From NCBI GenBank assembly GCA_017431625.1, contig JAFRKQ010000021.1:13324-77323 (forward strand): 64,000 bases of DNA, given 5' to 3'. Below are positions 3,626 through 34,843 of this stretch, in pieces. The position numbers and the translations under genes were made by a program. The stretch is from a bacterium. GTDB taxonomy: Bacteria > Patescibacteriota > Microgenomatia > UBA1400 > PJMF01. Below the pieces are notes generated by a model. It was not told where the DNA came from. It did not search any database and saw only the letters and a list, made by a program, of their open reading frames with translations. Numbering within the stretch: position 1 is the stretch's first letter; each line of letters begins with the position of its first letter.

Positions 3626-3699
3626 GTCGCGGTACCAGAGTGGTCCAATGGCCGGGTCTGCAAAACCTTGGTTCGCGGGTTCGAATCCCGCCCGTGACT
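3626..3699 (+). tRNA. tRNA-Cys (anticodon GCA)
   Basis: Hand-folded. Acceptor stem GTCGCGG/CCGTGAC (7 bp including one G-U). T-arm GCGGG-TTCGAAT-CCCGC. Anticodon loop CTGCAAA with U33 and A37. No encoded CCA. The D-arm is short (3 bp). Confidence 0.75.
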
Positions 3700-3799
3700 C
3701 ACTAGTAAAATATTGTTGATGCAAGGGAATAATATTAGTAATTGAGGAAATTTTGTGAACAAAAACAAAACTAACCGCGATCCGCTCCATTCACAAAAA

Positions 3800-3814
3800 A
3801 GCACTAATAGTGCT
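3800..3814. repeat. Perfect palindrome AGCACTAATAGTGCT upstream of the (GA)n tract
   Basis: agcact/agtgct inverted repeat seen directly. Confidence 0.6.
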
Positions 3815-3837
3815 CTTGGTGTAGTTTCGGAACTCTC

Positions 3838-3858
3838 GAGAGAGAGAGAGAGAGAGAG
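3838..3858. repeat. (GA)10 dinucleotide microsatellite, 25 nt upstream of the large glycosyltransferase ORF
   Basis: gagagagagagagagagagag flanked by tcgag on both sides. Confidence 0.95.
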
Positions 3859-3882
3859 TCGAGAACACGAAGTAGTACGTGT

Positions 3883-6800
3883 TTGTTATCACAATTCGAT
3901 TTGAATCTGGATAAGCCAGTAGCAGAAGGTGAGAGGCAAGACCAGAGCGAAAGTATCCAGACTGTTTATAACGATGGAAAAGTTGAAAAGCAGATTCTTG
4001 ACTGTTTGTTCCGAGGTGATGCTCCCGCGACAATAGAAGACAATACTGGGGTAGTGTTTCATAATTTTACGAATGCCCGGGAAAATTTACTCAATTGGTA
4101 TCCATTTAATAAGAATGCTGAGATTCTAGAGGTCGGTGCGGGTATGGGTGGCCTAACCGGTTTATTATGTGATCGGGTAGCTCATGTAACTGCTTTAGAG
4201 AACGCTCCACAGCGTGCTGATATTATTAGGATGCGTTATGCAGAAAAGAAAAATTTAACAGTAATTACTGGCAATTTGGCAGATATTGATAAAAATAGCA
4301 AGTTTGATTATATTTTGGTAGTAGGAGTACTTGAATACGTAGACATTGGAAAATCGTCCGGCAGACAAGCACATTTGGATTTTCTATCTCAAGTGAAACT
4401 CATGTTAAAACCAGGAGGGATTTTGTTGCTGGCAATCGAAAATAGATTTGGTTTGAAGTACTGGTGCGGTGCGGCTGAAGATCACATTGGCAAGCCTTTT
4501 GTTGGTATTGAAGGTTATAAAGATAGTTATACAACTAGATATCAATCGCGAGGTGTAACAACTTTTGACAAGCAATCATTAGCTGATTTATGCAAAGAAG
4601 TGGGTTTGGTTTATCAGCGTTGGTATTACCCTCTTGCTGATTATAAATTTCCCACAGCGATCTTTAGTGATGACAAATTACCTAGTTTAAGTGATATTGC
4701 CAGAATTAAGTTCACTTACCCTCAAGAGTCGACACTGATAGCCGATGAGAGAGAACTTTACCGTGAAATAATTAGTAATGATGTATTTCCTTTTTTTGCC
4801 AATTCTTTTTTATTAGAGACATCGACAACTGATTTACCCAGCGATAATGTAATGTGTGCATTCTTAAAGCGTGATTATGCTGCTCAATATCGGCTAGCCA
4901 CTATTTTCATGCGCGATACGGTAGAAAAAGTGGCTTTGAATGGCAAGGCTAAAAATCATTTAAACGAATTAATTAACAATACCAATGCGATTAAAAAAAG
5001 AGGCGTGCCAATTTTGGAAGGAAAATTATTAGATGAGCGCTGGATATTGAAAAAAATATCAATGCCTTTAGCAAATAAAAAAATGGCAGAATGGCTGGAG
5101 CGAGGAGATTTAGCGTCAATTAAAGATTTGTGTGAAAAGTTGGAGACATATTTAAAGAAGTCTTCGCCCTTTTTCAGTGCCAAAAATGTCTACAACTGTG
5201 AACTTGGAGATTTTGTCTTTGACCAGGAAGAAGTGATTTTAGAAGACGGTTATATTGACTTGACCTTTAATAATAGTTTTTATCAAGATAGCGATTTATT
5301 ATTCTTTGATCAGGAGTGGCGTTTAAAAAATGTACCTTTGAAATTTATTCTCTATCGTGCTTTGCTTTATGCTTTTAAAGATAATAGCTTTTTAAGCTTT
5401 GACAAACTTCTAGCGACCGTCAAAATTAATGAAACCATGACACAACAGTTTGCCCGAGCAGAAAAAATAATGTTGTCTTCAATTATGGATGATGAGATGG
5501 TAAAAAGATTCGACAGCGATATGTACCATGAAGGATTAACGTTGAATTATCAAAGAAAACAAGAGTTATCCAACAAACAGGCTCACATTGAAACATTGCT
5601 TGAATCTGAACGCAGTTTAAATCAAATAATTGACAATCAAAAAAAACAATTGACTGATCAAAGCGTGACAATTGACAACCAACATGGTCATATCGAGCAG
5701 CTTCTCGAAAAAGAACGTGCTTGGGAACGAGAGAAAAATTCTAAAGCCTATCAGCTAGCAATGAAGTTTAGTGCCACCTCACAATTTTTCTTGCCAGAAA
5801 AAAGTCGGCGGCGATTTTTATTCAAGGCAGCCAATAAAGTGATTAATGATCCCAGTTTACTACCGAAAGCTTTGGACCCACAACGTTGGCGAGATTACTT
5901 AAGTTTAATGAATAATGGTGAATTTGCGCAAGCAGAAAAGCAACTCGATCAAGCAGCTGTCAATCAGCGAAATGCTAATATCGCTTTAGATGTTTCAAAG
6001 TATGACATTACTCTAGTGACGCCAGAATTGCAACCGATAGGTGTCTACAGACACTTAACGTTCCCGCAAGTCTCTCAGCCTCTAGTTTCGATCATTATCC
6101 CAGTTTATAATCAGTTCAATTACACCTATTATTGTTTGGCATCAATTTTGAAACATACTCAAGACATTGATTATGAGGTAATTATTGCCGATGATTGTTC
6201 GACTGACCTGACTACAGAGATCGCGCAGCTGATAGACAATATAAAGATTGTGAGGACACCCCACAATCTGCGCTTTTTACGTAACTGTAATTATGCGGCC
6301 AAAACAGCACGCGGCAAGTATATATTATTTCTCAATAACGACACCCAGGTACAAGAAAAGTGGTTATCATCACTTTTGGATTTGATTGAAAATGATAAAA
6401 CTATTGGTATGGTGGGATCTAAATTGATTTATCCAGATGGCCGTTTGCAAGAAGCCGGCGGGCTTGTTTGGAATGACGCCAGCGCTTGGAATTACGGCCA
6501 AGGTCAAAATCCAGAGTTACCAGAGTTTAATTACGTGAAAGAATGTGATTATATTTCTGGGGCGGCGATCATGATCAGACATTCCTTGTGGGATGAAATT
6601 GGTGGATTTGATGAGAGATTCGCACCGGCATACTGCGAGGATTCTGATTTAGCTTTTAGCGTCCGTCAACATGGTTTCAAAGTTGTTTTTCAGCCATTAT
6701 CAATAGTGGTACATTTTGAAGGTGTCTCAAATGGCACCGATCTGAGTAGTGGTCAAAAAAAATATCAGGTAGAAAATACGAAAAAGTTTTATCAAAAGTG

Positions 6801-7995
6801 GCAAAAAATATTGCGTGCCGATCAATTTGCCAATGCACAGAATGTTTTCTTGGCTTGCGATCGGAGTCGATATCGACAGCACGTTTTATTTGTGGATCAT
6901 TACGTGCCAATGTATGATCAAGATGCTGGCAGCAAAACGACGTATGCGTACATAAAAATGCTAGCGCAAAAAGGTTTTGCGGTAACTTTTTTAGGTGATA
7001 ACTTTTACCGGCACGAACCATATACGACCGCTCTACAGCAATTAGGCGTACGCGTACTTTACGGCACCCAGGTTGCTAATAATTTAGAGTCTTGGTTTGT
7101 CCATAATGGCAAATATTTTGACATCTTTTATTTAAATCGACCTCATATATCTGTTAAATATTTAGATTTAATCAGAAATTATTCTTCTGGCAAAGTTATT
7201 TATTATGGTCATGATTTACACTTCTTGCGCACTAGACGAGAATATGAGCTCTCTGGTGATGAAAAAAAACTGACGGAAGCGATGGAATGGCAGGAAAAAG
7301 AGCTATCTATTATGCGACGTACTGACATGAATTATTATCCGTCGAGTGTAGAAGTTCAAGAAATTGCCAAGCTGGATCCACAAATACCGGTAAAGGCAAT
7401 TAGCGCCTATATTTTTTCGGCCGCATCAAAAGTCGATTACCAAGCAGCAAAGACCGATGGGATTTTGTTTGTTGGCGGTTTTGCACACGGGCCCAATCTT
7501 GACGCTGTCAAATGGTTTGTGACAAAAATATATCCAGAAATCTATCACCAGACTCATGCTCCTTTTTATATTGTTGGCTCTAAAGCTCCTGAAGAGATTA
7601 AAAGCATTGATGTACCAGGAGTGATTTGTAAAGGTTTTGTAAGCGAAAAAGAGCTTGAGGAGTTATACCAAAGTTGTCGTCTTAGTGTCGCTCCACTGCG
7701 ATACGGAGCAGGTATCAAAGGAAAAGTAATTGAAGCTTTTTATCATGGTAGTCCAATGGTGACAACATCAGTGGGTATTGAAGGAATAGACGGGGCAAGT
7801 GATTTTGTTTGCGTACGCGATCAAGCGATTGATTTTTCCGAAGCCGTGATCAAACTATATCATAATACAGAAAAATTAAACCGCATTTCCAATTTGTCTA
7901 AGCAGTATGTAGAAAATCACTTTAGTGAAAAATCTGCCTGGGAGATAATTAATGATGATTTTGGCAATGCAAACCAAAAAGAAAGATCCAAATGA
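3883..7995 (+). CDS. Multidomain glycan-synthesis enzyme: class I SAM-methyltransferase, coiled coil, GT2 glycosyltransferase, GT4/GT1-type glycosyltransferase (1370 aa)
   Basis: Motif I ILEVGAGMGGLTGLL (MTase). Heptad-like Q/E/K-rich segment at about aa 550-620. GT2 core VSIIIPVYNQ...DYEVIIADDCSTD...CED. C-terminal GT4-like EX7E region EAFYHGSPMVTTSVGIEG. First in-frame start is TTG at 3883 (no upstream ATG), so the start is uncertain. Very AT-rich. Confidence 0.8.
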   Translation: MLSQFDLNLDKPVAEGERQDQSESIQTVYNDGKVEKQILDCLFRGDAPATIEDNTGVVFHNFTNARENLLNWYPFNKNAEILEVGAGMGGLTGLLCDRVAHVTALENAPQRADIIRMRYAEKKNLTVITGNLADIDKNSKFDYILVVGVLEYVDIGKSSGRQAHLDFLSQVKLMLKPGGILLLAIENRFGLKYWCGAAEDHIGKPFVGIEGYKDSYTTRYQSRGVTTFDKQSLADLCKEVGLVYQRWYYPLADYKFPTAIFSDDKLPSLSDIARIKFTYPQESTLIADERELYREIISNDVFPFFANSFLLETSTTDLPSDNVMCAFLKRDYAAQYRLATIFMRDTVEKVALNGKAKNHLNELINNTNAIKKRGVPILEGKLLDERWILKKISMPLANKKMAEWLERGDLASIKDLCEKLETYLKKSSPFFSAKNVYNCELGDFVFDQEEVILEDGYIDLTFNNSFYQDSDLLFFDQEWRLKNVPLKFILYRALLYAFKDNSFLSFDKLLATVKINETMTQQFARAEKIMLSSIMDDEMVKRFDSDMYHEGLTLNYQRKQELSNKQAHIETLLESERSLNQIIDNQKKQLTDQSVTIDNQHGHIEQLLEKERAWEREKNSKAYQLAMKFSATSQFFLPEKSRRRFLFKAANKVINDPSLLPKALDPQRWRDYLSLMNNGEFAQAEKQLDQAAVNQRNANIALDVSKYDITLVTPELQPIGVYRHLTFPQVSQPLVSIIIPVYNQFNYTYYCLASILKHTQDIDYEVIIADDCSTDLTTEIAQLIDNIKIVRTPHNLRFLRNCNYAAKTARGKYILFLNNDTQVQEKWLSSLLDLIENDKTIGMVGSKLIYPDGRLQEAGGLVWNDASAWNYGQGQNPELPEFNYVKECDYISGAAIMIRHSLWDEIGGFDERFAPAYCEDSDLAFSVRQHGFKVVFQPLSIVVHFEGVSNGTDLSSGQKKYQVENTKKFYQKWQKILRADQFANAQNVFLACDRSRYRQHVLFVDHYVPMYDQDAGSKTTYAYIKMLAQKGFAVTFLGDNFYRHEPYTTALQQLGVRVLYGTQVANNLESWFVHNGKYFDIFYLNRPHISVKYLDLIRNYSSGKVIYYGHDLHFLRTRREYELSGDEKKLTEAMEWQEKELSIMRRTDMNYYPSSVEVQEIAKLDPQIPVKAISAYIFSAASKVDYQAAKTDGILFVGGFAHGPNLDAVKWFVTKIYPEIYHQTHAPFYIVGSKAPEEIKSIDVPGVICKGFVSEKELEELYQSCRLSVAPLRYGAGIKGKVIEAFYHGSPMVTTSVGIEGIDGASDFVCVRDQAIDFSEAVIKLYHNTEKLNRISNLSKQYVENHFSEKSAWEIINDDFGNANQKERSK

Positions 7996-8999
7996 TTATT
8001 ACGCAAACTCCATTTCGGATGTCTTTTTTTGGCGGTGGAACTGACTTTCCCGAATTTTTTCGTGAGCATGGTGGCAGCGTAATATCGTCTACTTTTGATA
8101 AGTATGCATATGTAAACGTCCGCCATTTGCCGCCATTTTTTGATTATACTAGTGAAATATCTTATTCAAAACTAGAACGGGTAAAAAGTGTTAATGAGAT
8201 TGAGCATCCGGCAGTGCGTGAAACCATGAAATATCTAGATATGCATGATTTGCGTATCTCATATGAAGCTGATTTACCAGCACGTTCCGGCTTGGGGACA
8301 AGTAGCTCTTTTGTCGTGGGGATGTTACATGCTTTCTATGCGCTTAAAGGCAAATACGCAAGCAAAAAGCATTTAGCTGACGACGCAATTTATTTAGAAA
8401 GAGAACTGTGCAAAGAGACAGGCGGTATCCAAGACCAAATTGCTGTCAGTTTTGGCGGTTTTAACAGAATTAATTTTGATGTTAAAGGTTACAGTGTCAA
8501 TCCCATTATTATTTCTCCTAGTCGTTTGCAGCAGCTAAATGATTCCTTACTACTTTATTTCACTGGTTTTTCTCGTATTTCTGCTGATATTCAAGTGCAG
8601 ACACAAAAAAATCTCAAAAATAATACGAATACATTACTAGAAATGCTAGAATTAGTGGATGAAGCCGAAAAAATTCTTACTAGCAAAACGAATTTAGATG
8701 AATTTGGACGGCTGCTTGATTATACTTGGAAATTAAAACGCGGTTTGACGGATAAGGTTTCTACTGGTTGCATAGATGATATTTACGCTGAGGCACTCAA
8801 AGCCGGCGCTTTGGGAGGCAAACTCTTGGGAGCTGGCGGTGGTGGCTTCTTACTCTTTTATGTTGCACCAGAAAAGCATGCTCAAGTAAAAGAATGTTTG
8901 TCGCGTTTATTGTATGTGCCTTTTTGTTTTGAAACTGGTGGCACACGTGTTATTCACTACACGCCAGAAATTTATGATGATCGTGGAGAGGATAAGTAA
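7992..8999 (+). CDS. hddA: GHMP-family sugar kinase, D-glycero-D-manno-heptose 7-phosphate kinase (HddA-like)
   Basis: GHMP motif PARSGLGTSSSFVVGML. The N-terminus (MSFFGGGTDFPEFF) fits HddA. ATGA overlap with the upstream stop. Confidence 0.75.
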   Translation: MIITQTPFRMSFFGGGTDFPEFFREHGGSVISSTFDKYAYVNVRHLPPFFDYTSEISYSKLERVKSVNEIEHPAVRETMKYLDMHDLRISYEADLPARSGLGTSSSFVVGMLHAFYALKGKYASKKHLADDAIYLERELCKETGGIQDQIAVSFGGFNRINFDVKGYSVNPIIISPSRLQQLNDSLLLYFTGFSRISADIQVQTQKNLKNNTNTLLEMLELVDEAEKILTSKTNLDEFGRLLDYTWKLKRGLTDKVSTGCIDDIYAEALKAGALGGKLLGAGGGGFLLFYVAPEKHAQVKECLSRLLYVPFCFETGGTRVIHYTPEIYDDRGEDK

Positions 9000-10279
9000 T
9001 GAAAAAACCTCCTGCAGTAATCATGGCTGGTGGCAAAGGAACACGAATCGCAGCGATAAACGCAACTGTGCCTAAACCAATGATAGAGATTGCTGACAAA
9101 CCAATCTTGCAATATGAGTTGGAAGTGCTGTCGCGACAAGGCTATCGTGATGTTACTATTGTTACGGGACATCTCGGCCATGCAATCCAAGAATATTTTG
9201 GTGACGGCAGCAGTTTTGATTTGCAAATTAACTATCTGCACGAAAAAGAACCTTTAGGCACAGCGGGTGCGCTTTATTGGTTAAAAGGTAAAGTCTCTAC
9301 CGATTTCTTGTTGCTTAATGCGGATATTATTTTTGATGTCGATCTGGATCGTTTTTACCGTTATCACCAAGCACAAAAAACGACAGCGACGATTTTGACC
9401 CATCCTAACGCTCATCCCTATGACAGTGCAATTATTGCTGCAGACAAAAATAACATTGCAACTGCTTGGTTACATAAAGAAGACACACGACTCTGGTATC
9501 GCAACCGCGTCAATGCTGGGTTGCACTTTTTATCGCCTTCTGTTTTCGCGAGCTATAAAACTCTAGAAAAAAAAGACTTGGATCGAGATATTCTCAAACC
9601 ATTAATTGAAACCCACCAACTAAGTGTCTATGACTCTCCAGAATACGTCAAAGATATGGGTACGCCTGATCGCTATGAAAATGTAATCAAAGATCTACGC
9701 GATGGCTTAGTAGCAGCAAGAAATCTCAATCGGCGACAAAAAGCAATCTTTTTGGATCGTGACGGCACTTTAAATAAAGATGCTGGCTTTTTGACAAATA
9801 TTGACCAGCTGGAATTAATTCCTGGAGCGAGCGAAGCAGTAAAGTTAATTAATGATAGCGGTTACTTAGCAATTGTCGTCACCAATCAACCAGCAATAGC
9901 GCGTGGAGAATTAACTATTGCACAGTTGGATTTGATTCATCAAAAATTGGAAACTTTATTGGGGCAAGATGGCGCTTATCTTGACGCTATTTATTATTGC
10001 CCACATCATCCAGATAAAGGTTTTTCTGGAGAACGACCAGAATATAAAATTGAGTGTGAGTGTCGCAAACCAAAGCCAGGAATGCTGCTGCAAGCAGCTA
10101 GACATTTTAATATTGATTTGTCATCATCTTGGATGATTGGTGATAGTATTAAAGATATTGAAGCCGGAAAGGCAGTCAATTGTTACACTGCACTTTTGAG
10201 TAAAGAGCAAGCGAATATACAGCCAGATTTGTCGGCACGCGATTTATTGTCAGCAGTCAAAAAGATATTGGACAAATAG
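8999..10279 (+). CDS. Bifunctional heptose-1-phosphate nucleotidyltransferase (HddC-like) fused to D,D-heptose 1,7-bisphosphate phosphatase (GmhB, HAD family)
   Basis: N-terminal MAGGKGTRIA...GTAGALY nucleotidyltransferase. C-terminal AIFLDRDGTLN (HAD motif I) plus the Zn-finger signature CPHHPD...CECRKPKPGML typical of GmhB. Confidence 0.8.
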   Translation: MKKPPAVIMAGGKGTRIAAINATVPKPMIEIADKPILQYELEVLSRQGYRDVTIVTGHLGHAIQEYFGDGSSFDLQINYLHEKEPLGTAGALYWLKGKVSTDFLLLNADIIFDVDLDRFYRYHQAQKTTATILTHPNAHPYDSAIIAADKNNIATAWLHKEDTRLWYRNRVNAGLHFLSPSVFASYKTLEKKDLDRDILKPLIETHQLSVYDSPEYVKDMGTPDRYENVIKDLRDGLVAARNLNRRQKAIFLDRDGTLNKDAGFLTNIDQLELIPGASEAVKLINDSGYLAIVVTNQPAIARGELTIAQLDLIHQKLETLLGQDGAYLDAIYYCPHHPDKGFSGERPEYKIECECRKPKPGMLLQAARHFNIDLSSSWMIGDSIKDIEAGKAVNCYTALLSKEQANIQPDLSARDLLSAVKKILDK

Positions 10280-10282
10280 AAT

Positions 10283-10924
10283 ATGTCACAAAATAAATAT
10301 TTAGCTGAATTACTTATAAGATATCCGAGATTAGCGGCTTGCGAAAACAGTGTTTACCAAACATATCAAATGTTACTAGATAGTTTTGCCAATCAACATA
10401 AACTTCTTGTAGCTGGCAATGGGGGAAGTTGCGCTGACGCAGAGCATTTAGTGGGTGAATTGATGAAAGGCTTTTGTTTACCGCGACTTTTAGATGAACA
10501 ACAAAAGCAGAAGTTAATAAGCATTGATGATGAAATCGGTAAAACTTTAGGTAAAAAATTACAAGGTGCTCTTCCCACTCTCGCACTAACAAATCACAAT
10601 GCATTAAATACAGCTTATCTTAATGATGTTGATGGACTTTATATTTACGCGCAACAGGTTTACGGCTACGGCCAAGTTGGCGACGTCTTTTTGGGGATTA
10701 GCACTTCAGGCAATTCTAAAAACATCCTTAATGCAGCCGTAACGGCAAAAGCAAAACAGCTAAAAGTGATTGGTTTAACGGGGGAAAATGGTGGTAGATT
10801 AAAAGATTATTGTGATGTCTGTATCTGTGTGCCAGAAACGGAAACATTTAAAGTCCAAGAATTGCATTTGCCAGTTTATCATTGTTTAGCATTGATGTTG
10901 GAAGAGAAGTTTTTTGGAAAGTGA
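10283..10924 (+). CDS. gmhA: Sedoheptulose-7-phosphate isomerase (SIS domain)
   Basis: LVAGNGGSCADAEHLVGEL, ISTSGNS and QELHL motifs match the GmhA consensus. Confidence 0.85.
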   Translation: MSQNKYLAELLIRYPRLAACENSVYQTYQMLLDSFANQHKLLVAGNGGSCADAEHLVGELMKGFCLPRLLDEQQKQKLISIDDEIGKTLGKKLQGALPTLALTNHNALNTAYLNDVDGLYIYAQQVYGYGQVGDVFLGISTSGNSKNILNAAVTAKAKQLKVIGLTGENGGRLKDYCDVCICVPETETFKVQELHLPVYHCLALMLEEKFFGK

Positions 10925-10962
10925 TATGAAAAACCGAACGCTATGTACTCCAGGATCATAAT

Positions 10963-13809
10963 ATGCTAACACTTAAAAAGTTTTATTTGACACATTTTCT
11001 TAACAAAAAACAGATACGAGATTTGCTGGAATTCTTATCAGTTATACTTGCCATTAATATCCTAATAATTATCGGCGTGAAAAATGGGCTTTTTTTTCTA
11101 GAAAGTGGTGTACTCTATCGAGACGTCCCTGTTTATAAGTTTGCCGATAGTCTCAAAAGTGGCGACGATAGCGTAGAACAAGAGTTTATTCCTAAGATGC
11201 CAGGGCTTACGAGAATTGATATCAGATTGGCCTATGCAGGTAATATTGAGGATGATCATGCACAAGCACTTTTAACTTTAAGCGACGATGAGGGGAATAT
11301 TTTATCTGAACATATTGTTACTGGAGATAATTTTGAAAACTGGCGCTATTTTAGTATAGACGCTAGGGGCTTGCAATGTGGACACAAGTATGTCATCAAA
11401 ATGCAACAACAATCACAGAATTTGACTCCAGACGGCGATTTTGCAACTTCGTGGGCTCCTTTTGTTTATGAAGCCGATGAAATCCTATCCAAGGATAAAA
11501 CTTTTCCTCAAGAGAATCTCACTAGTTATTATAATCATGCAGTACGTAATTACCATTGGGACATTCATTATGTCTATGGAAGAACAGTTTATCTATATAT
11601 GCTTTTTATTGATATAATAGTGTTTAGCGTGTATATACTGGGGTCTATTTTTTTAAAACACATGGCTCTGCAAAAAAAGAAACAATGTTTAAATTCAGAT
11701 ATAAAAACGATCACAAATGCCATTTTGATTAGCAATTGCTTAGTGGCTAGTTATTTAATTTATGTTGTTTATGTTTGGTTTCTTGAGTTAGTAGATTTTG
11801 TTTGCTATTTTTTTCAGTGGCCGCAAGCGACACCAATTTCTCGCATTATGGTGGCTTCTTTTACTATGTTACTAGTCTTTTTCTGCAAAAGAAAGAAAGC
11901 GTTTATCGTGGGAAGGTTGTCCTTTAATTGGAAATTATTGCTGGCCATTGTATTTTTTATCCTGCTGAGTGCGACCAAAATTGTGTATCCAGATACTAGT
12001 GCGGATACCTTTAATTATCATTTATTGGCACAGCAGCCGGGATTTGTAAACTATTTTAAACAAGGTTTTGGCGCAGGGGGATTTCAGGTGTGGGGTTTCC
12101 GCCTTGGAGATCGTTTATATTATCCATTTCGAGTGTTGCTGGGGTATAGGTTGGGGACTGTTTTAAATACCATAGTTGTCATAATCATCTACTTACAACT
12201 AGTTCTTATTATGCAAACATTTACTAAGGACAATGTGCGAAAGTTCTGTTTGTCTCCTGAAATGTTTGCTTTACTTTTACTGGCCACGCAGTGGGACACT
12301 CTATTAATGATGGGCATATACTATGTGGATATTTTATCTATCCCTTTAATTTTGGAAGCATTTAGAATACTTGCTTCTCATGAAAATGAGAAAATAAATA
12401 CAACTAAAATAATTTACTTGTCTTTTCTACTGGGGTTTGCTTTTGCCTTCAAAATGACGAATATTGCATTTGTGTTACCATTGGGAATGGTTTTATTGGT
12501 AAAATCTTGGAAAAAAATTACGCCCGTTAGCTTTATTGTCGCCGGTCTTGCTTGTGTTTTACCGGTTAGTATTTATTTAATATTTAATTTTGTTTGTACA
12601 CGTAATCCAGTTTTCCCTTATTATAACAAGATTTTCCGATCTCCATATTTTAAGATCGCAAATTTTAAAGATAATAGATGGGGCGGGAGTGACACCAAGC
12701 AACAACTACTCTGGTTTTATCATATCGTAAAGCACCCAGAAAGCCGCGTTTCGGAAATTAATAATCCTAACACTACATTCATACTATTTTCACTATTTGC
12801 GTTCATTTTGCTACTTTCTTTGGTTGTATATTATCACTGGAGGAAGCGTTATACTTACAAATCATTCTTCACGTATATTGGCATGATTATATTTTCATAT
12901 TTGATTTGGACATTTTCAACTGGTTATCCGCGCTACTATATTGGCGGTTTTATATTATGGGGATTGGCAATTTATTTATGCCTTTATTTATTTTCCCAAA
13001 AAAATTTACTTGTAACTAATGTACTTAGTGTTATGTTCATTGTTGTTTCATTGCTAATTGCCAAAGACGAGGCGTGGACAGTTGTTGTCGCCGGTCATGA
13101 ATGGTCATGGCGTCAATTCTCTATGGCCACATACAAGATACAATTACCATTGATATTCCATGACAAAATATGGTATTTGCCTGATAATCAAGAATTTCCT
13201 GATAAATTTATTTTGACTGAGGCAACCACGGGGGACGTCGTTTTAGCTAACCCGCGGGCTTCTATCATAGCCTTATATTATCAACGTTGGCTGGATAATC
13301 AGGAAACTATAAACGATCTTCACAATAAAGCAAAACAAGCATTAAATTCGAGAGGATATATCATTTTAAGAAGTGCTAAGAATCTAAAAGCGATTATTGA
13401 CGAACTAAATAAGTATAGTTTATACTTAAATGATATACAGATGATATATACCAATCAGGCTCAGCGTTATTTAGGATTGGTAGAAAGACTTATGGATGCA
13501 ACCAACTCAGGCGAATTAGTTACAGATGATTTTCATACTACATTAAATATTAAACCAAACCGCAATAATGTAAATTTTATATATGTATGTATTACATCCA
13601 ATGAAGGAGGAAATTGCGATTATCATGTCACTCTATCTCAAGATAATGCAGTAGTTTATGAAGAAAATATTAATATAGGAAAAGATCAAACTGGAAAATT
13701 AGATATGAATATATCTGAAGAAGTGTCACCAGACACCCTAGACGTTTCTATTATGAACAATCGAGCTAATAGCTCTGGCAGTCAATTGGCAATCATCAAC
13801 TTGCACTAA
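10963..13809 (+). CDS. Large polytopic membrane protein (948 aa, >12 predicted TM helices plus a C-terminal soluble domain). Possible GT-C-type glycosyltransferase, oligosaccharyltransferase or polymerase
   Basis: ATG at 10963. Long hydrophobic helices throughout aa 200-700, then a hydrophilic ~250-aa C-terminal domain. AT-rich. No catalytic motif recognised, so the functional call is by context. Confidence 0.6.
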   Translation: MLTLKKFYLTHFLNKKQIRDLLEFLSVILAINILIIIGVKNGLFFLESGVLYRDVPVYKFADSLKSGDDSVEQEFIPKMPGLTRIDIRLAYAGNIEDDHAQALLTLSDDEGNILSEHIVTGDNFENWRYFSIDARGLQCGHKYVIKMQQQSQNLTPDGDFATSWAPFVYEADEILSKDKTFPQENLTSYYNHAVRNYHWDIHYVYGRTVYLYMLFIDIIVFSVYILGSIFLKHMALQKKKQCLNSDIKTITNAILISNCLVASYLIYVVYVWFLELVDFVCYFFQWPQATPISRIMVASFTMLLVFFCKRKKAFIVGRLSFNWKLLLAIVFFILLSATKIVYPDTSADTFNYHLLAQQPGFVNYFKQGFGAGGFQVWGFRLGDRLYYPFRVLLGYRLGTVLNTIVVIIIYLQLVLIMQTFTKDNVRKFCLSPEMFALLLLATQWDTLLMMGIYYVDILSIPLILEAFRILASHENEKINTTKIIYLSFLLGFAFAFKMTNIAFVLPLGMVLLVKSWKKITPVSFIVAGLACVLPVSIYLIFNFVCTRNPVFPYYNKIFRSPYFKIANFKDNRWGGSDTKQQLLWFYHIVKHPESRVSEINNPNTTFILFSLFAFILLLSLVVYYHWRKRYTYKSFFTYIGMIIFSYLIWTFSTGYPRYYIGGFILWGLAIYLCLYLFSQKNLLVTNVLSVMFIVVSLLIAKDEAWTVVVAGHEWSWRQFSMATYKIQLPLIFHDKIWYLPDNQEFPDKFILTEATTGDVVLANPRASIIALYYQRWLDNQETINDLHNKAKQALNSRGYIILRSAKNLKAIIDELNKYSLYLNDIQMIYTNQAQRYLGLVERLMDATNSGELVTDDFHTTLNIKPNRNNVNFIYVCITSNEGGNCDYHVTLSQDNAVVYEENINIGKDQTGKLDMNISEEVSPDTLDVSIMNNRANSSGSQLAIINLH

Positions 13810-14005
13810 GTAATTAAATCAACTAAAGATGTTCTGATTGTCCAGATAATGTAGGTTAAGTAAAATTTCGTGCAGGTTTTACTCTTGCAAAATATGAATT
13901 ATGTTATTATGCAAAACAGCAACCATCTTGTCCAAATTCAAATACTCACAAACTAACAGATAGATTAACAAATGGATTAACAAATATAAACACACTTCAT
14001 AGCTA

Positions 14006-14236
14006 TCACCGTTTTATTCTTTCAGTATAATTCTTAATGATGTCTTTTCCTCTTAATTCACATGATTGAATTAACATTTCTATCTTACTGGGTTCATCAA
14101 GATTGTTTAGATTTAATTCATCATATAAGTGTTTCACATTTTCTTTTAGTTTTTCTAATAGTTCTGGAGTCATAACTCTGATTGCTGAATTTGAAGCCTC
14201 CACGGCAGCCAGCAGTGGTGCTGTCGTAATCCCCAA
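14006..14236 (-). CDS. Small hypothetical helical protein (55-76 aa) in an AT-rich spacer
   Basis: ATG-initiated ORF with amphipathic-helix-like sequence (MTPELLEKLKENVKHLYDEL...). It overlaps an antisense ORF (14103..14477) whose first half looks non-coding. Confidence 0.3.
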   Translation of the reverse strand: MGITTAPLLAAVEASNSAIRVMTPELLEKLKENVKHLYDELNLNNLDEPSKIEMLIQSCELRGKDIIKNYTERIKR

Positions 14237-14481
14237 ACTTTTTTACCGAGGCTATATTGCTCGCGATGAAAGTCACAATACTTTCCCTATCGTCAATGGT
14301 GACAATAATTGTGCCGCCGTCCTGTTACCGGCCAACTATCATGGTATTATCACTGTAGAATACCAAAAAAGAAAAATCTGGATTTTGGGCGAATGGATAT
14401 CCGTCATCACTTTGTGTGTACTCATCAGCATCGCCGTTATCACATACTGCAACCAGCGACGCACACAAACATCATAAATTA

Positions 14482-14521
14482 CTGCCACTCCCCGCCATTT
14501 CTGGCAAAAATTCGCACTAAA
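14482..14521. repeat. R1 repeat, copy 1 (CTGCCACTCCCCGCCATTTCTGGCAAAAATTCGCACTAAA)
   Basis: About 88% identical 40-nt copy at 15809-15848. Copy 1 overlaps the -35 region of the downstream ATPase gene (TATAAT at 14536-14541). Confidence 0.8.
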
Positions 14522-14548: not shown

Positions 14549-15799
14549 ATGCTCGAAATCAAACGTGACTACTATCTGCGCCAACTGATCGCCCAGCGTG
14601 GCTCTAGTTTCATCAAAATCATTACTGGCTTGCGCCGTGCCGGCAAATCCTACTTGCTCGATCCAATTTTTCGCCAATTCTTACTTCAAGATGGCGTCGC
14701 GCCGGATCATATCATTCACCTCAATTTGGAAGAGTTTGAAAACCGCTGCTTGCTTGACCCCTCCGCATTATTCACTTTTGTCAAAAAACAAATCGCCGAT
14801 AGTCAAACTTATTACGTGCTCCTCGATGAAATCCAACTTGTGCCCGGTTTCGAGTCCATTCTCTCCAGTTTTCTCCACCTAGACAATCTCGACGTTTACG
14901 TGACTGGCAGTAACTCACGTTTCTTGTCTTCAGACGTCATCACTCAATTTCGCGGCCGTGGCACCCAAATTCACCTGTATCCACTCAGCTTTGGCGAAAT
15001 TTATGCCGCCTTAGGCGGTGATAAATACGAGCTCTGGGAGCGTTATTACCGTTACGGTGGCTTGCCGCAAGTGGTCCAGCAGCCCGATGACCAAGCCCGG
15101 ATCTCCTTTTTAGAAGCACAAAAAGACAATGTTTATCTCAATGACTTAATAGAACGTTATCGTATCCGCAATAGTGACAGTCTGGGTATCCTCAGTAGTG
15201 TCATCGCTTCAGACGTGGGTGCGCTCACCAACCCCCACAAACTCGAGCGCACCTTCAAAAGCAAAATTGGTGTCGACCTAAGCTACCACAAAATCGAGGA
15301 TTATTTAGAAAAACTCCAAAACGCTTTTTTAATCGAAAAATCTAAACGTTTTGACGTCAAAGGCAAACGTTATATTGATACTCCGGTAAAATACTACTTT
15401 ACTGATCCCGGCATTCGCAACGCTTTCGTTGATTTCCGCCAAACAGAAGAATCTCATCTGATGGAAAATATTATCTATAATGAACTCCGCCGCCGCGGAT
15501 TCAAAGTCGATGTCGGCACGGTCGAAACCAGAGGGGAAAATGGCACTCGCCAACAATTAGAGGTGGATTTTGTCGCGAGAAAGGCCGATAATACATATTA
15601 TATTCAATCAGCCCTCACGATCGGTGATAGTGCCAAAAGATACCAAGAATCACGCTCGCTAGATCACATTAATGATCACTTCAGCAAGATCATCATCGCC
15701 AAAGATACTTTTGCTCCCGGCCACGAGCGCAACGGCATTGCTACCATCGGTCTTTTTGGCTTTTTACTCGATGACAAAATCCTAGATAAATATCAATAG
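14549..15799 (+). CDS. AAA+ ATPase of the COG1373 / AAA_14 + DUF4143 family (paralog 1)
   Basis: Walker A GLRRAGKSYLL. Walker B YVLLDEIQ. The length and C-terminal half are consistent with DUF4143-type proteins. ATG at 14549 with TTATAAT 7 nt upstream. Confidence 0.7.
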   Translation: MLEIKRDYYLRQLIAQRGSSFIKIITGLRRAGKSYLLDPIFRQFLLQDGVAPDHIIHLNLEEFENRCLLDPSALFTFVKKQIADSQTYYVLLDEIQLVPGFESILSSFLHLDNLDVYVTGSNSRFLSSDVITQFRGRGTQIHLYPLSFGEIYAALGGDKYELWERYYRYGGLPQVVQQPDDQARISFLEAQKDNVYLNDLIERYRIRNSDSLGILSSVIASDVGALTNPHKLERTFKSKIGVDLSYHKIEDYLEKLQNAFLIEKSKRFDVKGKRYIDTPVKYYFTDPGIRNAFVDFRQTEESHLMENIIYNELRRRGFKVDVGTVETRGENGTRQQLEVDFVARKADNTYYIQSALTIGDSAKRYQESRSLDHINDHFSKIIIAKDTFAPGHERNGIATIGLFGFLLDDKILDKYQ

Positions 15800-15808
15800 T
15801 GTCACTCT

Positions 15809-15848
15809 ACTGCCAATTTCCGCCATTTTTGGCAAAAATTCGCACTAA
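15809..15848. repeat. R1 repeat, copy 2
   Basis: Direct repeat of 14482-14521, beginning 10 nt after the stop of ATPase paralog 1. Confidence 0.8.
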
Positions 15849-16049
15849 ACCAACCAGAAATAATCTAAACAGGTTCAAACACATTTCGGAATAAAAATTT
15901 GGGTTAAGTAAAAAAAACGTGGAGGTTTTTTGCATGGCTTTTAGCGGTGTATACGTAAAATTGGCATTATTTTGCACTTTTTGAGTGCTAAAATACACCA
16001 ATTGCGACCAAGAAGTAGGCAACACCAAATCTGTGTTGCACTCCCACTT

Positions 16050-16140
16050 AACCCCACATTTCGTGAAAAAACAGCCAAAATTAACTTTACATTTCGTGAT
16101 ATTTTGCCAAAAATTAAGCTTACATTTCGTGAAAAAACAC
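16050..16140. repeat. R2 array A: three tandem 33-bp units with core TTACATTTCGTGA, immediately upstream of a TTGACA -35 element
   Basis: ACATTTCGTG at 16056, 16089 and 16122 (period exactly 33 bp). Inter-core sequence is semi-conserved (GCCAAAAATTAA). TTGACA at 16141. Confidence 0.85.
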
Positions 16141-16192
16141 TTGACAATTATTCTAATAGTGATCTAATCACTAAGAAAGGTTGAAAACTATT

Positions 16193-17545
16193 ATGAAAAG
16201 GCTTATCTACGATCAGCTGCTTGAGTGGAAAAACACTGATCAAGGTCGGCACGCTGTATTAATTGAAGGCGCGCGACGTGTTGGCAAAAGTTACATTACC
16301 AATGATTTTGGCAATGACAATTACGCTTCTTACCTCACAATCGACTTTTCGGCCACTACCGATGAAATCCGTGATCTTTTTTATAACTATCTTGATCACC
16401 TTGACGATTTTTTTCACCTGCTGACCAATTATTATCAAGTTAAACTTTTTCATCGCCAGTCACTGATTATTTTTGATGAAGTTCAACATTTTCCTCGTGC
16501 CCGCGAGGCCATAAAGCGCCTTGTTGCTGACGGACGCTATGATTACATCGAAACTGGCTCCTTGATTTCCATCAAACAAAACGTCAAAGACATCCTCATA
16601 CCGTCTGAAGAAAGAAAACTAACTATGAGGCCCATGAATTTTCAAGAATTTTGCTTGGCGACCAATAATCAAATGCTTTGGGAATATATCTGCGATTGTT
16701 TCGCACAAAAAAAATCTCTGACACCACCAATGCATCGACGTGCCATGAATGTTTTTCGCCAATACCTAATTGTTGGTGGCCTGCCTCAAGCAGTAGCTGC
16801 TTTTATTAAATCTCAAGATTATACCCTAGTAGACCACGAAAAAAGAGCTATTCTTGATCTTTATCGCAATGATATTAGCAAATTTAGCGATTCAATTCGT
16901 TTTAAGGTAGAAAAAATTTTTGACGATATTCCCTCTCAACTTCAGCGACATGAAAAAAAATTTAATTTGGCCGACATTGATTACAATGCTCGCTTGCGAG
17001 AATATGACGATGCCTTTTATTGGTTGCTTGATGCAGGTTTGATCAATATTGCTTATAATACCACCGAACCAAATTTGGGTCTCAATCTTGCAAAAGATGA
17101 CCGGTATTTCAAGTGTTATCTGTTTGATACAGGTTTACTTTTAGCTATGACTTTTAATGAAAAAGAAATTGCCCGCGAAGAAATATACAAAAAGATTCTT
17201 TTCAACAAACTCGAATTTAACCAAGGCATGATTATGGAAAACCTTATCGCCCAAATGTTACGCTCAAGCGGACATCATCTTTTCTTTTATGTCAAACATG
17301 ATCGTGGTGATAATAATGAAAACATGGAGGTTGATTTTCTTTTGTCTAAAAATGTTATCACCAATAAGCACAATATTATCCCGATCGAGGTCAAAACTGG
17401 TGTTAGATACACTTACAAATCACTGCGCAAATTCTCTCAAAAATATCAGCAATTTGTCACCAAACCAATTATTATTCACCAAAATGATTTGCAAATTGAC
17501 AATGGCATTCTCTATTTGCCCGCTTACATGGCCGAGTTGCTTTAA
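16193..17545 (+). CDS. AAA+ ATPase of the COG1373 / AAA_14 + DUF4143 family (paralog 2)
   Basis: Walker A GARRVGKSYIT. Walker B IIFDEVQ. SD-like AAGAAAGG 12 nt before the ATG at 16193. The ORF track starts at TTG 16181. Confidence 0.7.
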   Translation: MKRLIYDQLLEWKNTDQGRHAVLIEGARRVGKSYITNDFGNDNYASYLTIDFSATTDEIRDLFYNYLDHLDDFFHLLTNYYQVKLFHRQSLIIFDEVQHFPRAREAIKRLVADGRYDYIETGSLISIKQNVKDILIPSEERKLTMRPMNFQEFCLATNNQMLWEYICDCFAQKKSLTPPMHRRAMNVFRQYLIVGGLPQAVAAFIKSQDYTLVDHEKRAILDLYRNDISKFSDSIRFKVEKIFDDIPSQLQRHEKKFNLADIDYNARLREYDDAFYWLLDAGLINIAYNTTEPNLGLNLAKDDRYFKCYLFDTGLLLAMTFNEKEIAREEIYKKILFNKLEFNQGMIMENLIAQMLRSSGHHLFFYVKHDRGDNNENMEVDFLLSKNVITNKHNIIPIEVKTGVRYTYKSLRKFSQKYQQFVTKPIIIHQNDLQIDNGILYLPAYMAELL

Positions 17546-17554
17546 TTGATCACT

Positions 17555-17650
17555 AACTCTACATTTCGTGAAAAAACAGCCAAAATTAACTTTACATTTC
17601 GTGTGAATTTACTCAAAATTAATCTTGCATTTAGTGAGAAATACTGTAGT
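17555..17650. repeat. R2 array B: three tandem 33-bp units (ACATTTCGTG x2, GCATTTAGTG), direct orientation relative to array A
   Basis: Cores at 17561, 17594 and 17627. Begins 16 nt after the ATPase-2 stop. The first 50 nt are nearly identical to array A. Confidence 0.85.
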
Positions 17651-17799
17651 TTTAAGACATCAAGTCAGCGACTGATAATTTTCACCAATATGCCAAATTG
17701 TCCAGCAGTCAACCGAATTGAGTTTCCGCTAGCTATTCCCAAACTTTGGCAAATTCGCCATTAATTTGGAATTGACTTTAGTGACAAAATTAACTTTGG

Positions 17800-34827: not shown

Positions 34828-34843
34828 AAGAGCTGTTCTTTAT

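What the first reader, a model, noticed from the sequence alone, without database searches (positions are those of the whole stretch)
3700..14240. AT-rich cell-surface glycan island downstream of tRNA-Cys, encoding a complete GDP-heptose pathway
Directly downstream of tRNA-Cys, the composition drops to roughly 27-35% GC. Hand counts of sample lines gave 27% here, against 42% in dnaK and 57% in the upstream hypothetical. The tract contains four things. First, a giant MTase / coiled-coil / GT2 / GT4 fusion. Second, all four steps to GDP-D-glycero-alpha-D-manno-heptose (GmhA isomerase, HddA kinase, GmhB phosphatase, HddC guanylyltransferase), as used for S-layer glycoprotein glycans and some capsules. 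Third, a 948-aa polytopic membrane protein that could serve as a GT-C-type transferase or polymerase. Fourth, rmlA-like and glgX genes elsewhere in the window add to the sugar-activating repertoire. For a reduced-genome organism this is a large investment in a heptose-containing, probably methylated, surface glycan. That is a plausible host- or phage-interface structure that has not been characterised in such lineages.
Basis: partly seen in the sequence, partly recalled or inferred. Interest (0 to 1): 0.75.

Follow-up and report, generated by a model that had tools for sequence, protein, structure and literature searches.

The report
Heptose surface-glycan island in a Patescibacteria genome
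A small-genome (Patescibacteria) bacterium carries an AT-rich, probably swappable gene block that makes an activated seven-carbon sugar and very likely builds it into a capped surface sugar chain, using enzyme types already known from gut Clostridia and Klebsiella; it is real and sensible rather than a new kind of system.

Summary
GC is 37.2% at 3701-14240 against 46.3% elsewhere, and GC3 is 0.31 against 0.48. The low-GC tract starts at tRNA-Cys and runs to about 19300.

Five intact co-directional genes are present:
- A 1370-aa protein with methyltransferase, a hidden kinase-like domain, a coiled coil, GT2 and a GT-B domain.
- An HddA-type kinase.
- An HddC-GmhB fusion.
- GmhA.

The giant protein has the layout of Klebsiella O7 ORF6. 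Its N-terminal half best matches the chain terminator WbdD. In Clostridia its homologues sit directly after wzm-wzt(Wzt_C) and before the same heptose genes. It is therefore best read as a one-polypeptide terminator, ruler and polymerase of the ABC-transporter-dependent pathway.

The window has no wzm/wzt, priming transferase or ligase, so the machinery seen here is incomplete.

The host is a Patescibacteria MAG. The closest heptose genes (80-88% aa) lie in another AT-rich island of a related Patescibacterium, and a 96%-identical genome lacks that island.

Verdict: a new member of a known kind, of moderate interest.

The parts
3626..3700 (+). tRNA-Cys(GCA). It marks the left edge of the low-GC tract.
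   Evidence: ARAGORN and Rfam RF00005 at 52.7 bits. No copy of its 3' end occurs elsewhere in the window.
3838..3857 (+). (GA)10 dinucleotide tract 25 nt upstream of the TTG start of the giant gene. It is the only GA/TC tract of 6 or more units in the window and a possible slipped-strand switch (inference only).
   Evidence: Sequence and regex count.
3883..7995 (+). 1370-aa multidomain enzyme. Domains: SAM methyltransferase (aa ~60-250); conserved kinase-like domain (aa ~295-550; invariant D459-x4-N464 and D476-Q-E478-W); coiled coil (aa ~554-640); GT2 (aa ~731-1000); GT-B / GT4-like (aa ~1005-1365). Proposed chain terminator, molecular ruler and polymerase.
7992..8999 (+). GHMP-family sugar kinase, HddA-type (D-glycero-D-manno-heptose 7-phosphate 1-kinase).
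   Evidence: Pfam GHMP N and C domains. Top NCBIfam hit is HddA NF049969 at 142 bits, below the cut-off of 600. Best PDB hits are the heptose kinases 4usk/4ut4 (E 8.5e-39), 3k85 and 4n3o.
8999..10279 (+). Fusion protein. The N-terminal part is a sugar-1-phosphate nucleotidyltransferase (HddC-like, aa 6-234). The C-terminal part is a HAD-IIIA heptose 1,7-bisphosphate 7-phosphatase (GmhB, aa 246-411).
   Evidence: Pfam. TIGR00213 GmhB scores 151.4, above its cut-off of 149.6. PDB: GmhB 2gmw E 5e-39; GDP-mannose pyrophosphorylases about 1e-23; HddC 6jq8 3e-14. The fusion is very common in Lachnospiraceae and Roseburia at 63-66% identity.
10283..10924 (+). SIS-domain sedoheptulose-7-phosphate isomerase (GmhA).
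   Evidence: Pfam SIS_2. NCBIfam gmhA models are the top hits but fall below cut-off. Eleven of the 15 PDB hits listed, including the 11 best, are phosphoheptose isomerases; the best is 2xbl at E 2.4e-30.
10963..13809 (+). 948-aa polytopic membrane protein in three parts: a lineage-specific N-terminal extension (aa 1-248); a GT-C-fold core (aa ~249-720; invariant D348, Y352, H353, D383, R396); and a C-terminal alpha/beta domain plus a beta-sandwich that looks like a carbohydrate-binding module (aa ~721-948).
14480..14521 (+). Copy 1 of a ~40-nt conserved dyad element, upstream of the first defence-candidate gene.
   Evidence: the repeat finder family D3. The same element flanks a KilA-N gene in L010.
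14549..15799 (+). AAA_14 + DUF4143 ATPase, which matches the PADLOC candidate defence family PDC-S01. Cargo of the same low-GC tract; not part of the glycan pathway.
   Evidence: Pfam. PADLOC PDLC04787 at E 2.4e-113.
15808..15849 (+). Copy 2 of the ~40-nt dyad element, directly after the stop of the first ATPase gene.
16181..17545 (+). Second AAA_14 + DUF4143 ATPase (PDC-S01 candidate). It is bracketed by an 88-nt direct repeat at 16049-16136 and 17554-17641.
   Evidence: Pfam. PADLOC PDLC04786 at E 3.8e-104. Repeats D1/D2.
17882..18310 (-). IS200/IS605-family Y1 transposase (TnpA). It is the only recombinase in the tract.
   Evidence: Pfam Y1_Tnp at E 3e-33 and NCBIfam NF033573 at 119.8 bits, above its cut-off of 55.
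18405..19130 (-). 241-aa membrane-anchored protein of unknown function. It is the last low-GC gene before dnaK (19394-21301).
   Evidence: ORF list. No hits. GC 42.4%.

Best explanation
This is a surface-glycan module of the ABC-transporter-dependent type. It sits in a low-GC, variable region of a Patescibacteria chromosome, next to candidate phage-defence genes and an IS200 transposase.

**Step 1 (well supported by homology).** GmhA isomerises sedoheptulose 7-phosphate. The HddA-type GHMP kinase phosphorylates C1 and gives the alpha-anomer. The GmhB domain removes the 7-phosphate. [quoted passage not shown]

**Step 2 (inferred from architecture and gene neighbourhood).** The 1370-aa cytoplasmic enzyme uses its GT2 and GT-B modules to polymerise a heptose-containing chain on a lipid-linked primer. 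Its N-terminal methyltransferase plus kinase-like module caps the non-reducing end with methyl or methyl-phosphate. The coiled coil between the two halves sets the chain length, as in WbdD, WbbB and Klebsiella O7 ORF6.

**Step 3 (inferred).** After export, the 948-aa GT-C enzyme acts outside the membrane on a polyprenyl-phosphate-linked donor. It either transfers the glycan to its acceptor or adds residues to it. Its C-terminal beta-sandwich probably holds the carbohydrate.

**What is missing.** Export (wzm/wzt), priming and ligation genes are not in this window. They must be encoded elsewhere if the pathway is active.
For: **Heptose pathway.**
- All three heptose genes have characterised heptose enzymes as their best hits.
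- The three genes are tightly packed, with start and stop codons overlapping or nearly so.

**Giant protein.**
- The full-length family has 377 hits at E<1e-30, at 40-53% identity. The named members come from Clostridium, Oscillibacter, Peptoanaerobacter and Acetatifactor.
- In L007/L008, L009 and L011 the gene lies directly after wzm and wzt. Wzt carries the Wzt_C terminus-binding domain in L007/L008 and L011. In every one of these loci the gene lies directly before the GHMP kinase of the heptose genes (the full set in L009 and L011). L001 shows the same gene order downstream of the giant gene.
- The N-terminal half best matches WbdD in the PDB, and the alignment spans both WbdD domains.
- The middle domain carries invariant D-x4-N and D-x-E motifs.
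- The coiled-coil spacer varies from 31 to 160 aa between strongly conserved domains.
- The same domain order was shown experimentally to terminate and polymerise in K. pneumoniae O7 ORF6 (PMC11231755). WsaE has an N-terminal methyltransferase and two glycosyltransferase domains and does the same job (PMC2943079).

**GT-C protein.**
- The fold is GT-C.
- Members of its family share contigs with the giant-protein family: L001; L009 (P0246); and, judged from matching contig lengths only, P0019/P0055 and P0020/P0141.
Against: - No wzm, wzt, priming transferase, LCP or O-antigen-ligase-type gene occurs anywhere in the 64 kb. The rest of the genome could not be retrieved.
- The heptose proteins score below the NCBIfam equivalog cut-offs, except for GmhB. 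The nucleotide specificity is unproven.
- The kinase-like domain has no sequence-level match to any kinase. The WbdD match has low TM-scores (0.18/0.29).
- No sugar, polymer or expression data exist.
Confidence: 0.6

Rival explanations
1. The cassette is an incomplete, recently transferred fragment of a Clostridia-type cluster. It was cut just downstream of wzm-wzt, so it is silent or non-functional cargo in this genome.
For: In three independent relatives wzm-wzt directly precede the giant gene. Here tRNA-Cys occupies that position. No transporter or priming gene lies in the window. GC3 is far from the host value.
Against: All five genes are full length compared with their homologues and have no frameshifts or stops. 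The heptose genes are 80-88% identical to those of another Patescibacterium and at most 74% identical to any other copy examined. That divergence is similar to the backbone's (dnaK 82% nt, secDF 70% nt, heptose trio 77% nt). This argues for long residence under selection. Low GC is normal for polysaccharide loci (PMC2943079).
Confidence: 0.2
2. The low-GC block is an assembly or binning chimera: a Clostridia fragment joined into a Patescibacteria contig.
For: The composition changes sharply at 3700. All named homologues of the giant protein are from Clostridia.
Against: The block has Patescibacteria-type genes on both sides of one contig. An independent JGI assembly (L010) shows a comparable AT-rich island. 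That island has the closest heptose genes and the same 40-nt element, and it lies inside a backbone 95.9% identical to the Patescibacteria MAG GCA_045541795.1.
Confidence: 0.04
3. The nucleotide-heptose is not GDP-linked, or it serves mainly as a donor for glycosylating a protein (pilin or S-layer) rather than for a long polysaccharide.
For: The HddC equivalog model scores only 93.9 against a cut-off of 300. General sugar-1-phosphate transferases score similarly. The final acceptor is unknown. GT-C enzymes include protein O- and N-glycosyltransferases such as Pmt, STT3 and PglB.
Against: The best nucleotidyltransferase matches are guanylyltransferases. A GHMP kinase plus GmhB is the GDP-alpha-heptose route (established knowledge from the Aneurinibacillus and Campylobacter pathways; PMC10680097 was listed but not read). 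The coiled-coil terminator and the Wzt_C transporters in homologous clusters point to a polymer of controlled length. Such a polymer can still end up on a protein, as in S-layer glycans.
Confidence: 0.15

Closest known systems
Klebsiella pneumoniae O7 ORF6 (methyltransferase-kinase terminator, coiled coil and two GT modules; PMC11231755)
   Different: No direct sequence comparison was possible. The paper's discussion calls both ORF6 modules GT2, whereas here the second is GT-B / GT4-like. The likely donor here is a nucleotide-heptose rather than dTDP-rhamnose. The hosts are Gram-positive or Patescibacteria. No wzm/wzt lies next to the window copy.
E. coli O9a / K. pneumoniae O3 WbdD (terminator) with WbdA (polymerase)
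   Same: WbdD is the best PDB match for the N-terminal half, and the alignment covers both its methyltransferase and kinase domains. There is a coiled-coil spacer. The donor is GDP-activated and manno-configured. The transporter carries Wzt_C in homologous clusters.
   Different: Terminator and polymerase are fused in one polypeptide. The kinase-like domain has no detectable sequence similarity. TM-scores are low.
Geobacillus stearothermophilus WsaE (S-layer glycan; PMC2943079)
   Same: A Gram-positive example with an N-terminal methyltransferase plus two glycosyltransferase domains in one protein. The gene follows wzm-wzt, and a methyl cap ends chain growth.
   Different: WsaE builds poly-rhamnan. 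No kinase domain or ruler is described for it. Homology was not tested here.
[quoted passage not shown]
   Same: The same four activities, and the best structural relatives are these enzymes.
   Different: HddC and GmhB are fused, as in Lachnospiraceae. Scores fall below the equivalog cut-offs except for GmhB. The nucleotide is unverified.
GT-C glycosyltransferases (PMT, ALG3/9/12, STT3/PglB/AglB, ArnT, AftA/B/D, YfhO)
   Different: It hits no existing Pfam family. It has a 248-aa N-terminal extension shared with an LtaS-like protein of an Oscillibacter cluster. Donor and acceptor are unknown.

Membership tests
[quoted passage not shown] | SIS-fold sedoheptulose-7-phosphate isomerase (GmhA) | tested here: met
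   The 11 best PDB hits are phosphoheptose isomerases, the best at E 2.4e-30. The NCBIfam gmhA models are the top hits, but at 129.8-132.7 bits they fall below their cut-offs of 209-276.
[quoted passage not shown] | GHMP-type heptose-7-phosphate 1-kinase (HddA), not the ribokinase-type HldE/HldA | tested here: met
   GHMP N and C domains. Best PDB hits are the heptose kinases 4usk, 3k85 and 4n3o at E 1e-32 to 1e-39. The HddA model is the top hit but below cut-off (142 against 600).
[quoted passage not shown] | HAD-IIIA heptose 1,7-bisphosphate 7-phosphatase (GmhB) | tested here: met
   TIGR00213 at 151.4 against a cut-off of 149.6; PRK08942 at 176.4 against 178. E. coli GmhB 2gmw at E 5e-39.
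[quoted passage not shown] | Heptose-1-phosphate guanylyltransferase (HddC) with GTP specificity | tested here: inconclusive
   The nucleotidyltransferase domain is present. The best matches are GDP-mannose pyrophosphorylases, and HddC 6jq8 scores E 3e-14. The HddC equivalog scores 93.9 against 300. Specificity cannot be read from these scores.
[quoted passage not shown] | Heptose present in the cell envelope | not testable with these tools
   Needs monosaccharide analysis of cells of an uncultured lineage.
ABC-transporter-dependent glycan assembly with a coiled-coil terminator (WbdD / WbbB / O7 ORF6 type) | Terminating catalytic module (methyltransferase, with or without kinase) at the N-terminus | tested here: met
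ABC-transporter-dependent glycan assembly with a coiled-coil terminator (WbdD / WbbB / O7 ORF6 type) | Kinase domain between the methyltransferase and the coiled coil (for a methyl-phosphate cap) | tested here: inconclusive
   A well-folded conserved domain is present (pLDDT about 90), with invariant D459-x4-N464 and D476-x-E478. The WbdD alignment spans 549 columns, that is, both domains. There is no kinase hit by sequence, and TM-scores are low.
ABC-transporter-dependent glycan assembly with a coiled-coil terminator (WbdD / WbbB / O7 ORF6 type) | Coiled-coil spacer of variable length between terminator and polymerase | tested here: met
   Long helices at aa 554-636 in the model. The spacer is 31-160 aa in 23 homologues and contains internal repeats, while the flanking domains are conserved.
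ABC-transporter-dependent glycan assembly with a coiled-coil terminator (WbdD / WbbB / O7 ORF6 type) | Polymerising GT modules | tested here: met
   GT2 at E 8.5e-28 and Glyco_trans_1_4 at E 1.8e-21 in the same polypeptide.
ABC-transporter-dependent glycan assembly with a coiled-coil terminator (WbdD / WbbB / O7 ORF6 type) | Linked Wzm/Wzt exporter (Wzt with a terminus-binding Wzt_C domain) | tested here: not met
   Absent from the whole window. Present directly upstream of the homologue in L007/L008, L009 and L011. The rest of this genome could not be examined.
ABC-transporter-dependent glycan assembly with a coiled-coil terminator (WbdD / WbbB / O7 ORF6 type) | Priming phosphoglycosyltransferase and adaptor GT | tested here: not met
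   No such family was found among the window ORFs scanned.
GT-C glycosyltransferases | Polytopic membrane GT-C fold | tested here: met
GT-C glycosyltransferases | Catalytic acidic residue(s) in an extracytoplasmic loop near the N-terminal helices | tested here: inconclusive
   D348 and D383 are invariant, as are Y352, H353 and R396, and they lie between predicted membrane helices. Topology and superposition on known active sites were not checked.
GT-C glycosyltransferases | Polyprenyl-phosphate-linked donor | not testable with these tools
   Needs biochemistry.
tRNA-associated genomic island / integrative element | Compositional deviation next to a tRNA gene | tested here: met
tRNA-associated genomic island / integrative element | Integrase and a direct repeat of the tRNA 3' end at the far border | tested here: not met
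   No integrase is present, only an IS200 Y1 transposase. There is no second copy of the tRNA 3' end, even allowing 3 mismatches.
tRNA-associated genomic island / integrative element | Present or absent among close relatives at the same locus | tested here: inconclusive
   The closest relative (L004, DnaK 91.6%) shares only dnaK-secDF. JGI metagenomes hold nothing closer than 79% DnaK, and the flanking hypothetical gene has no relatives there. For the sister island the feature is met: L010 carries it, and L092, 95.9% identical over 3.4 kb, carries other cargo.

The most novel reading that the evidence does not exclude
Patescibacteria of this lineage keep hypervariable 'surface plus defence' islands in which a conserved heptose-nucleotide trio is combined with interchangeable glycosyltransferase sets. 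The window has the ORF6-type giant enzyme plus a new GT-C family; L010 has GT2x3, GT8/GT4/MT and YfhO. The islands also hold single-gene defence cassettes (PDC-S01, KilA-N, Thoeris) that are bracketed by a shared ~40-nt dyad element. That element would act as a recombination site, making this an integron-like cassette exchange system. In this reading the window's glycan is also exported or attached without a Wzm/Wzt transporter, by way of the N-terminally extended GT-C protein.
Probability: 0.1. Interest if true: 0.75.

Novelty: new member of a known kind. Interest (0 to 1): 0.45.

Why it matters
Patescibacteria live attached to other cells, and their surface chemistry is almost unknown. A length-controlled, end-capped, heptose-containing glycan that differs between near-identical genomes is a good candidate for what hosts and phages see.

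The same cassette is very common and uncharacterised in gut Clostridia such as Roseburia, Lachnospiraceae and Oscillibacter. The functional reading therefore transfers to abundant human and animal gut bacteria, where nucleotide-heptoses are also of interest as immune signals.

The practical gains are threefold:
- A clear annotation for a family of roughly 1300-1500-aa 'glycosyltransferases'.
- Assignment of a large unannotated membrane-protein family to the GT-C fold.
- A concrete test set for the pathway.

Tried and rejected
**Synteny tests of island status at this locus.**
- A genome-contig scan with SecD found four relatives. The closest shares only dnaK-secDF and has no tRNA-Cys or cassette nearby.
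- A metagenome scan with the flanking 466-aa hypothetical protein found nothing.
- A metagenome scan with DnaK found nothing above 79% identity, and none of the 80 loci carries island genes.

**Retrieving the rest of the MAG contig.** Exact-protein look-ups of the window's own proteins are not on record.

**Classical tRNA-integrating element.** Rejected: there is no integrase and no repeat of the tRNA 3' end.

**Technical failures.** The first structure job, with full-length rows, failed. The afdb50 fold library was unavailable.

**Remnant of wzm/wzt upstream of the giant gene.** None was found.

**The 40-nt element.** It gave no significant hairpin as single-stranded DNA (z -0.35 to -1.7) and no hit in viral contigs.

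**glgX and rmlA-like as part of the system.** Rejected: they are unlinked, have backbone GC, and glgX is catabolic.

Full report

ARAGORN and Rfam place tRNA-Cys(GCA) at 3626-3700. From the next base the composition falls. Positions 3701-14240 are 37.2% GC against 46.3% for the rest of the window. Per-kb values are 33-41% inside and 43-51% outside.

Its comparison values for dnaK (42%) and the upstream gene (57%) are also off; the real values are 48.9% and 50.4%. The effect is still robust. Third-position GC of the five glycan genes is 0.313 +/- 0.017, against 0.479 +/- 0.034 in 27 other genes.

The low-GC tract does not stop at 14240. It continues, in mosaic form, to about 19300, just before dnaK.

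**2. What the genes are.**

Five co-directional, tightly packed ORFs fill 3883-13809.
- The kinase (7992-8999) is a GHMP kinase. Its best NCBIfam model is HddA. Its best solved relatives are the heptose kinases of Burkholderia, Bacteroides and Campylobacter, at E 1e-32 to 1e-39.
- 8999-10279 is a single protein. It joins a sugar-1-phosphate nucleotidyltransferase, closest to GDP-mannose pyrophosphorylases and HddC, to a GmhB phosphatase. The GmhB part passes the TIGR00213 cut-off and matches E. coli GmhB at E 5e-39.
- 10283-10924 is a GmhA-type SIS isomerase.

The four activities of the alpha-anomer nucleotide-heptose route are therefore present in three genes. Most scores lie below NCBI's equivalog cut-offs, and the GDP specificity is an inference.

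**3. The giant protein.**

Pfam sees a SAM methyltransferase (aa ~75-245), GT2 (733-947) and a GT-B/GT4-like domain (1193-1340).

The family is large and conserved over its full length: 377 hits at E<1e-30, at 40-53% identity. The named members come from Clostridium botulinum, Oscillibacter, Peptoanaerobacter and Acetatifactor.

Alignment shows a strongly conserved, unannotated domain at aa ~295-550 with invariant D459-x4-N464 and D476-Q-E478-W. This is the pattern of a catalytic loop plus metal-binding loop in kinase-like folds. Neither Pfam nor PDB sequence profiles recognise it.

The helical spacer varies from 31 to 160 residues in 23 homologues and often contains internal repeats, while both flanks stay conserved. 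That is the behaviour expected of a molecular ruler.

**4. Gene neighbourhood elsewhere.**

In three independent relatives the giant gene lies immediately after wzm and wzt. In L007/L008 and L011 the Wzt protein carries the Wzt_C domain, which in the model systems binds the capped chain end. In each of these relatives the gene lies immediately before the GHMP kinase of the heptose genes; L009 and L011 carry the full set. These relatives are L007/L008, L009 (an Oscillibacter genome) and L011. L001 shows the same order downstream of the giant gene.

This fixed order (wzm, wzt, giant gene, heptose genes) is the strongest evidence for two points. The giant enzyme belongs to the ABC-transporter-dependent pathway, and nucleotide-heptose is its donor.

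In the window tRNA-Cys and a 182-nt spacer occupy the place of wzm-wzt. No Wzm homologue, no Wzt beyond a generic MacB-type ATPase, no priming transferase and no ligase occur anywhere in the 64 kb. The rest of the window is housekeeping.

**5. The 948-aa membrane protein.**

It matches no Pfam or NCBIfam model. It does belong to a large family: 4913 cluster representatives at E<=1e-3. Typical members are about 710 aa, and the window protein aligns over residues 249-948, so it has a private 248-aa N-terminal extension.

Members of this family share contigs with the giant-protein family in L001 and in L009.

Donor and acceptor remain unknown.

**6. Whose genome, and is it an island?**

SecD and DnaK place the window in Patescibacteria. 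The best match is MAG GCA_045541795.1, 'Patescibacteria group bacterium', with DnaK 91.6% and SecD 78% identical. The window's DnaK is MBQ6449899.1, labelled '[bacterium]'.

That relative shares only dnaK-secD-secF, so the locus itself cannot be compared. Two metagenome scans gave nothing closer.

Indirect evidence is good.
- The closest heptose genes anywhere lie on a JGI contig, L010: 88, 81 and 80% aa identity and 77% nt identity, against at most 74% aa identity in any other copy examined.
- The first 3.4 kb of L010 are 95.9% identical to another contig of that same Patescibacteria MAG (L092).
- Colinearity ends after the TspO gene. L010 then carries an AT-rich block: KilA-N, a triple-GT2 protein, the heptose trio, a GT8/GT4/methyltransferase protein, a YfhO GT-C enzyme and Thoeris.
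- L092 carries a different AT-rich block at the same place: YobI ATPase, IS1595, a DNA methylase and HNH.

Heptose-glycan blocks are therefore exchangeable cargo in this lineage. They are combined with different glycosyltransferases and sit beside defence genes.

The window follows the same pattern. After the glycan genes come two AAA_14/DUF4143 ATPases that match the PADLOC candidate system PDC-S01 (E 1e-104 to 1e-113), an IS200 transposase and an unknown membrane protein.

The independent L010 assembly also argues strongly against a chimeric contig.

The heptose genes of the two Patescibacteria have diverged about as much as their backbones. The low GC therefore need not mean recent import, and polysaccharide loci are typically AT-rich. 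Because all named relatives of the giant protein are from Clostridia, an older transfer from that group is the likely origin. This is an inference.

There is no integrase and no repeat of the tRNA 3' end. The tract is thus not a classical tRNA-integrating element.

**7. Most likely mechanism.**

- Inferred from architecture, conserved neighbourhood and experimentally studied analogues: the giant enzyme polymerises a heptose-containing chain with its GT2 (inverting) and GT-B (probably retaining) modules. It caps the chain with methyl or methyl-phosphate, and its coiled coil sets the length.
- Inferred from fold only: the GT-C enzyme works on the outer face with a polyprenyl-phosphate-linked donor. 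It either attaches or decorates the glycan.
- Unknown: the primer, the exporter and the final acceptor.

I put 0.6 on this overall picture. About 0.85 applies to the sugar-nucleotide part, and about 0.5 to the pathway being complete and active in this organism.

**8. Rivals.**

- An incomplete, silent fragment (0.2). This fits the missing wzm/wzt. It is weakened by the intact genes and by the conserved Patescibacteria-specific heptose clade.
- A chimera (0.04). This is weakened by L010.
- A different nucleotide, or a protein as the main acceptor (0.15). This changes details rather than the kind of system.

**9. Novelty and interest.**

Every component belongs to a known kind: the heptose route, the ORF6/WbdD/WsaE-type terminator-polymerase, and GT-C enzymes.

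Three things are new. The first is the host lineage. The second is the pairing with a previously unannotated GT-C family without an adjacent transporter. The third is the evidence that such blocks are swapped between near-identical Patescibacteria.

This is a solid annotation result of moderate interest (0.45), not the 0.75 proposed.

The repeat-bracketed single-gene cassettes noted below are the least explained feature. They are the best lead towards something more unusual.

Noticed in passing
window 14480-14521 and 15808-15849; L010 3934-4008 and 4997-5051 (minus strand): A ~40-nt dyad-symmetric element (CTGCCAATTTCCGCCATTTTTGGCAAAAATTCGCACTAAA) occurs exactly twice in the window, bracketing one PDC-S01-type ATPase gene. 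It also occurs twice in L010, bracketing a KilA-N gene at the backbone/island junction. It is absent from the near-identical L092 and from viral contigs. It could be an operator/promoter module or a cassette recombination site.
   Followed up: partly
window 16049-16136 and 17554-17641: An unrelated 88-nt direct repeat brackets the second AAA_14/DUF4143 (PDC-S01) gene. It is built from three 33-nt-spaced units ending in TTAACTTTACATTTCGTGA, with a further unit at 17785-17808.
   Followed up: no
window 3838-3857: A (GA)10 tract lies 25 nt upstream of the giant gene's start and is the only such tract in 64 kb. It is a candidate slipped-strand on/off switch for the glycan operon. No population data were available to check length variation.
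   Followed up: partly
window 14549-15799 and 16181-17545: Both AAA_14/DUF4143 ATPases match the PADLOC candidate defence family PDC-S01 (E 2.4e-113 and 3.8e-104). The right half of the low-GC tract therefore looks like a small defence island next to the glycan genes.
   Followed up: partly
L010 19743-21222; L092 2536-8469: At one chromosomal site after TspO, two ~96%-identical Patescibacteria genomes carry different cargo. One has the heptose-glycan genes plus Thoeris (ThsB TIR, ThsA Macro). The other has a YobI ATPase, IS1595 transposase, DNA methylase and HNH nuclease.
   Followed up: partly
window 10963-11706 (aa 48-205 of the 948-aa protein); L009 19112-19585: The private N-terminal extension of the GT-C protein is 35% identical to the N-terminal part of an 830-aa LtaS/sulfatase-family membrane protein in the Oscillibacter heptose cluster. 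This suggests a shared extracytoplasmic module. The model is poor in this region (pLDDT below 50).
   Followed up: no
homologues of 3883-7995 (alignment A2): The coiled-coil spacers of family members contain obvious tandem peptide repeats, for example ATIAEQS x7 in the Oscillibacter protein and NLDLENR-type repeats in P0115. This points to rapid length evolution of the putative ruler.
   Followed up: partly
window 14103-14477: A 124-aa TTG-start ORF lies in the 740-nt gap after the GT-C gene. It has no family hits and straddles a sharp GC change (28% to 46%), so it is probably not a gene.
   Followed up: no
window 33440-34939 and 34844-34915: The mechanical hisS ORF (TTG start at 34939, minus strand) overlaps tRNA-Gly(CCC) on the plus strand. 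The true hisS start is probably further downstream.
   Followed up: no
window 40107-45450: A MacB-type permease, ABC ATPase and HlyD-family adaptor sit next to a histidine kinase and response regulator pair. This is ordinary backbone and unrelated to glycan export; its only similarity to Wzt is the generic ATPase fold (27% identity).
   Followed up: partly
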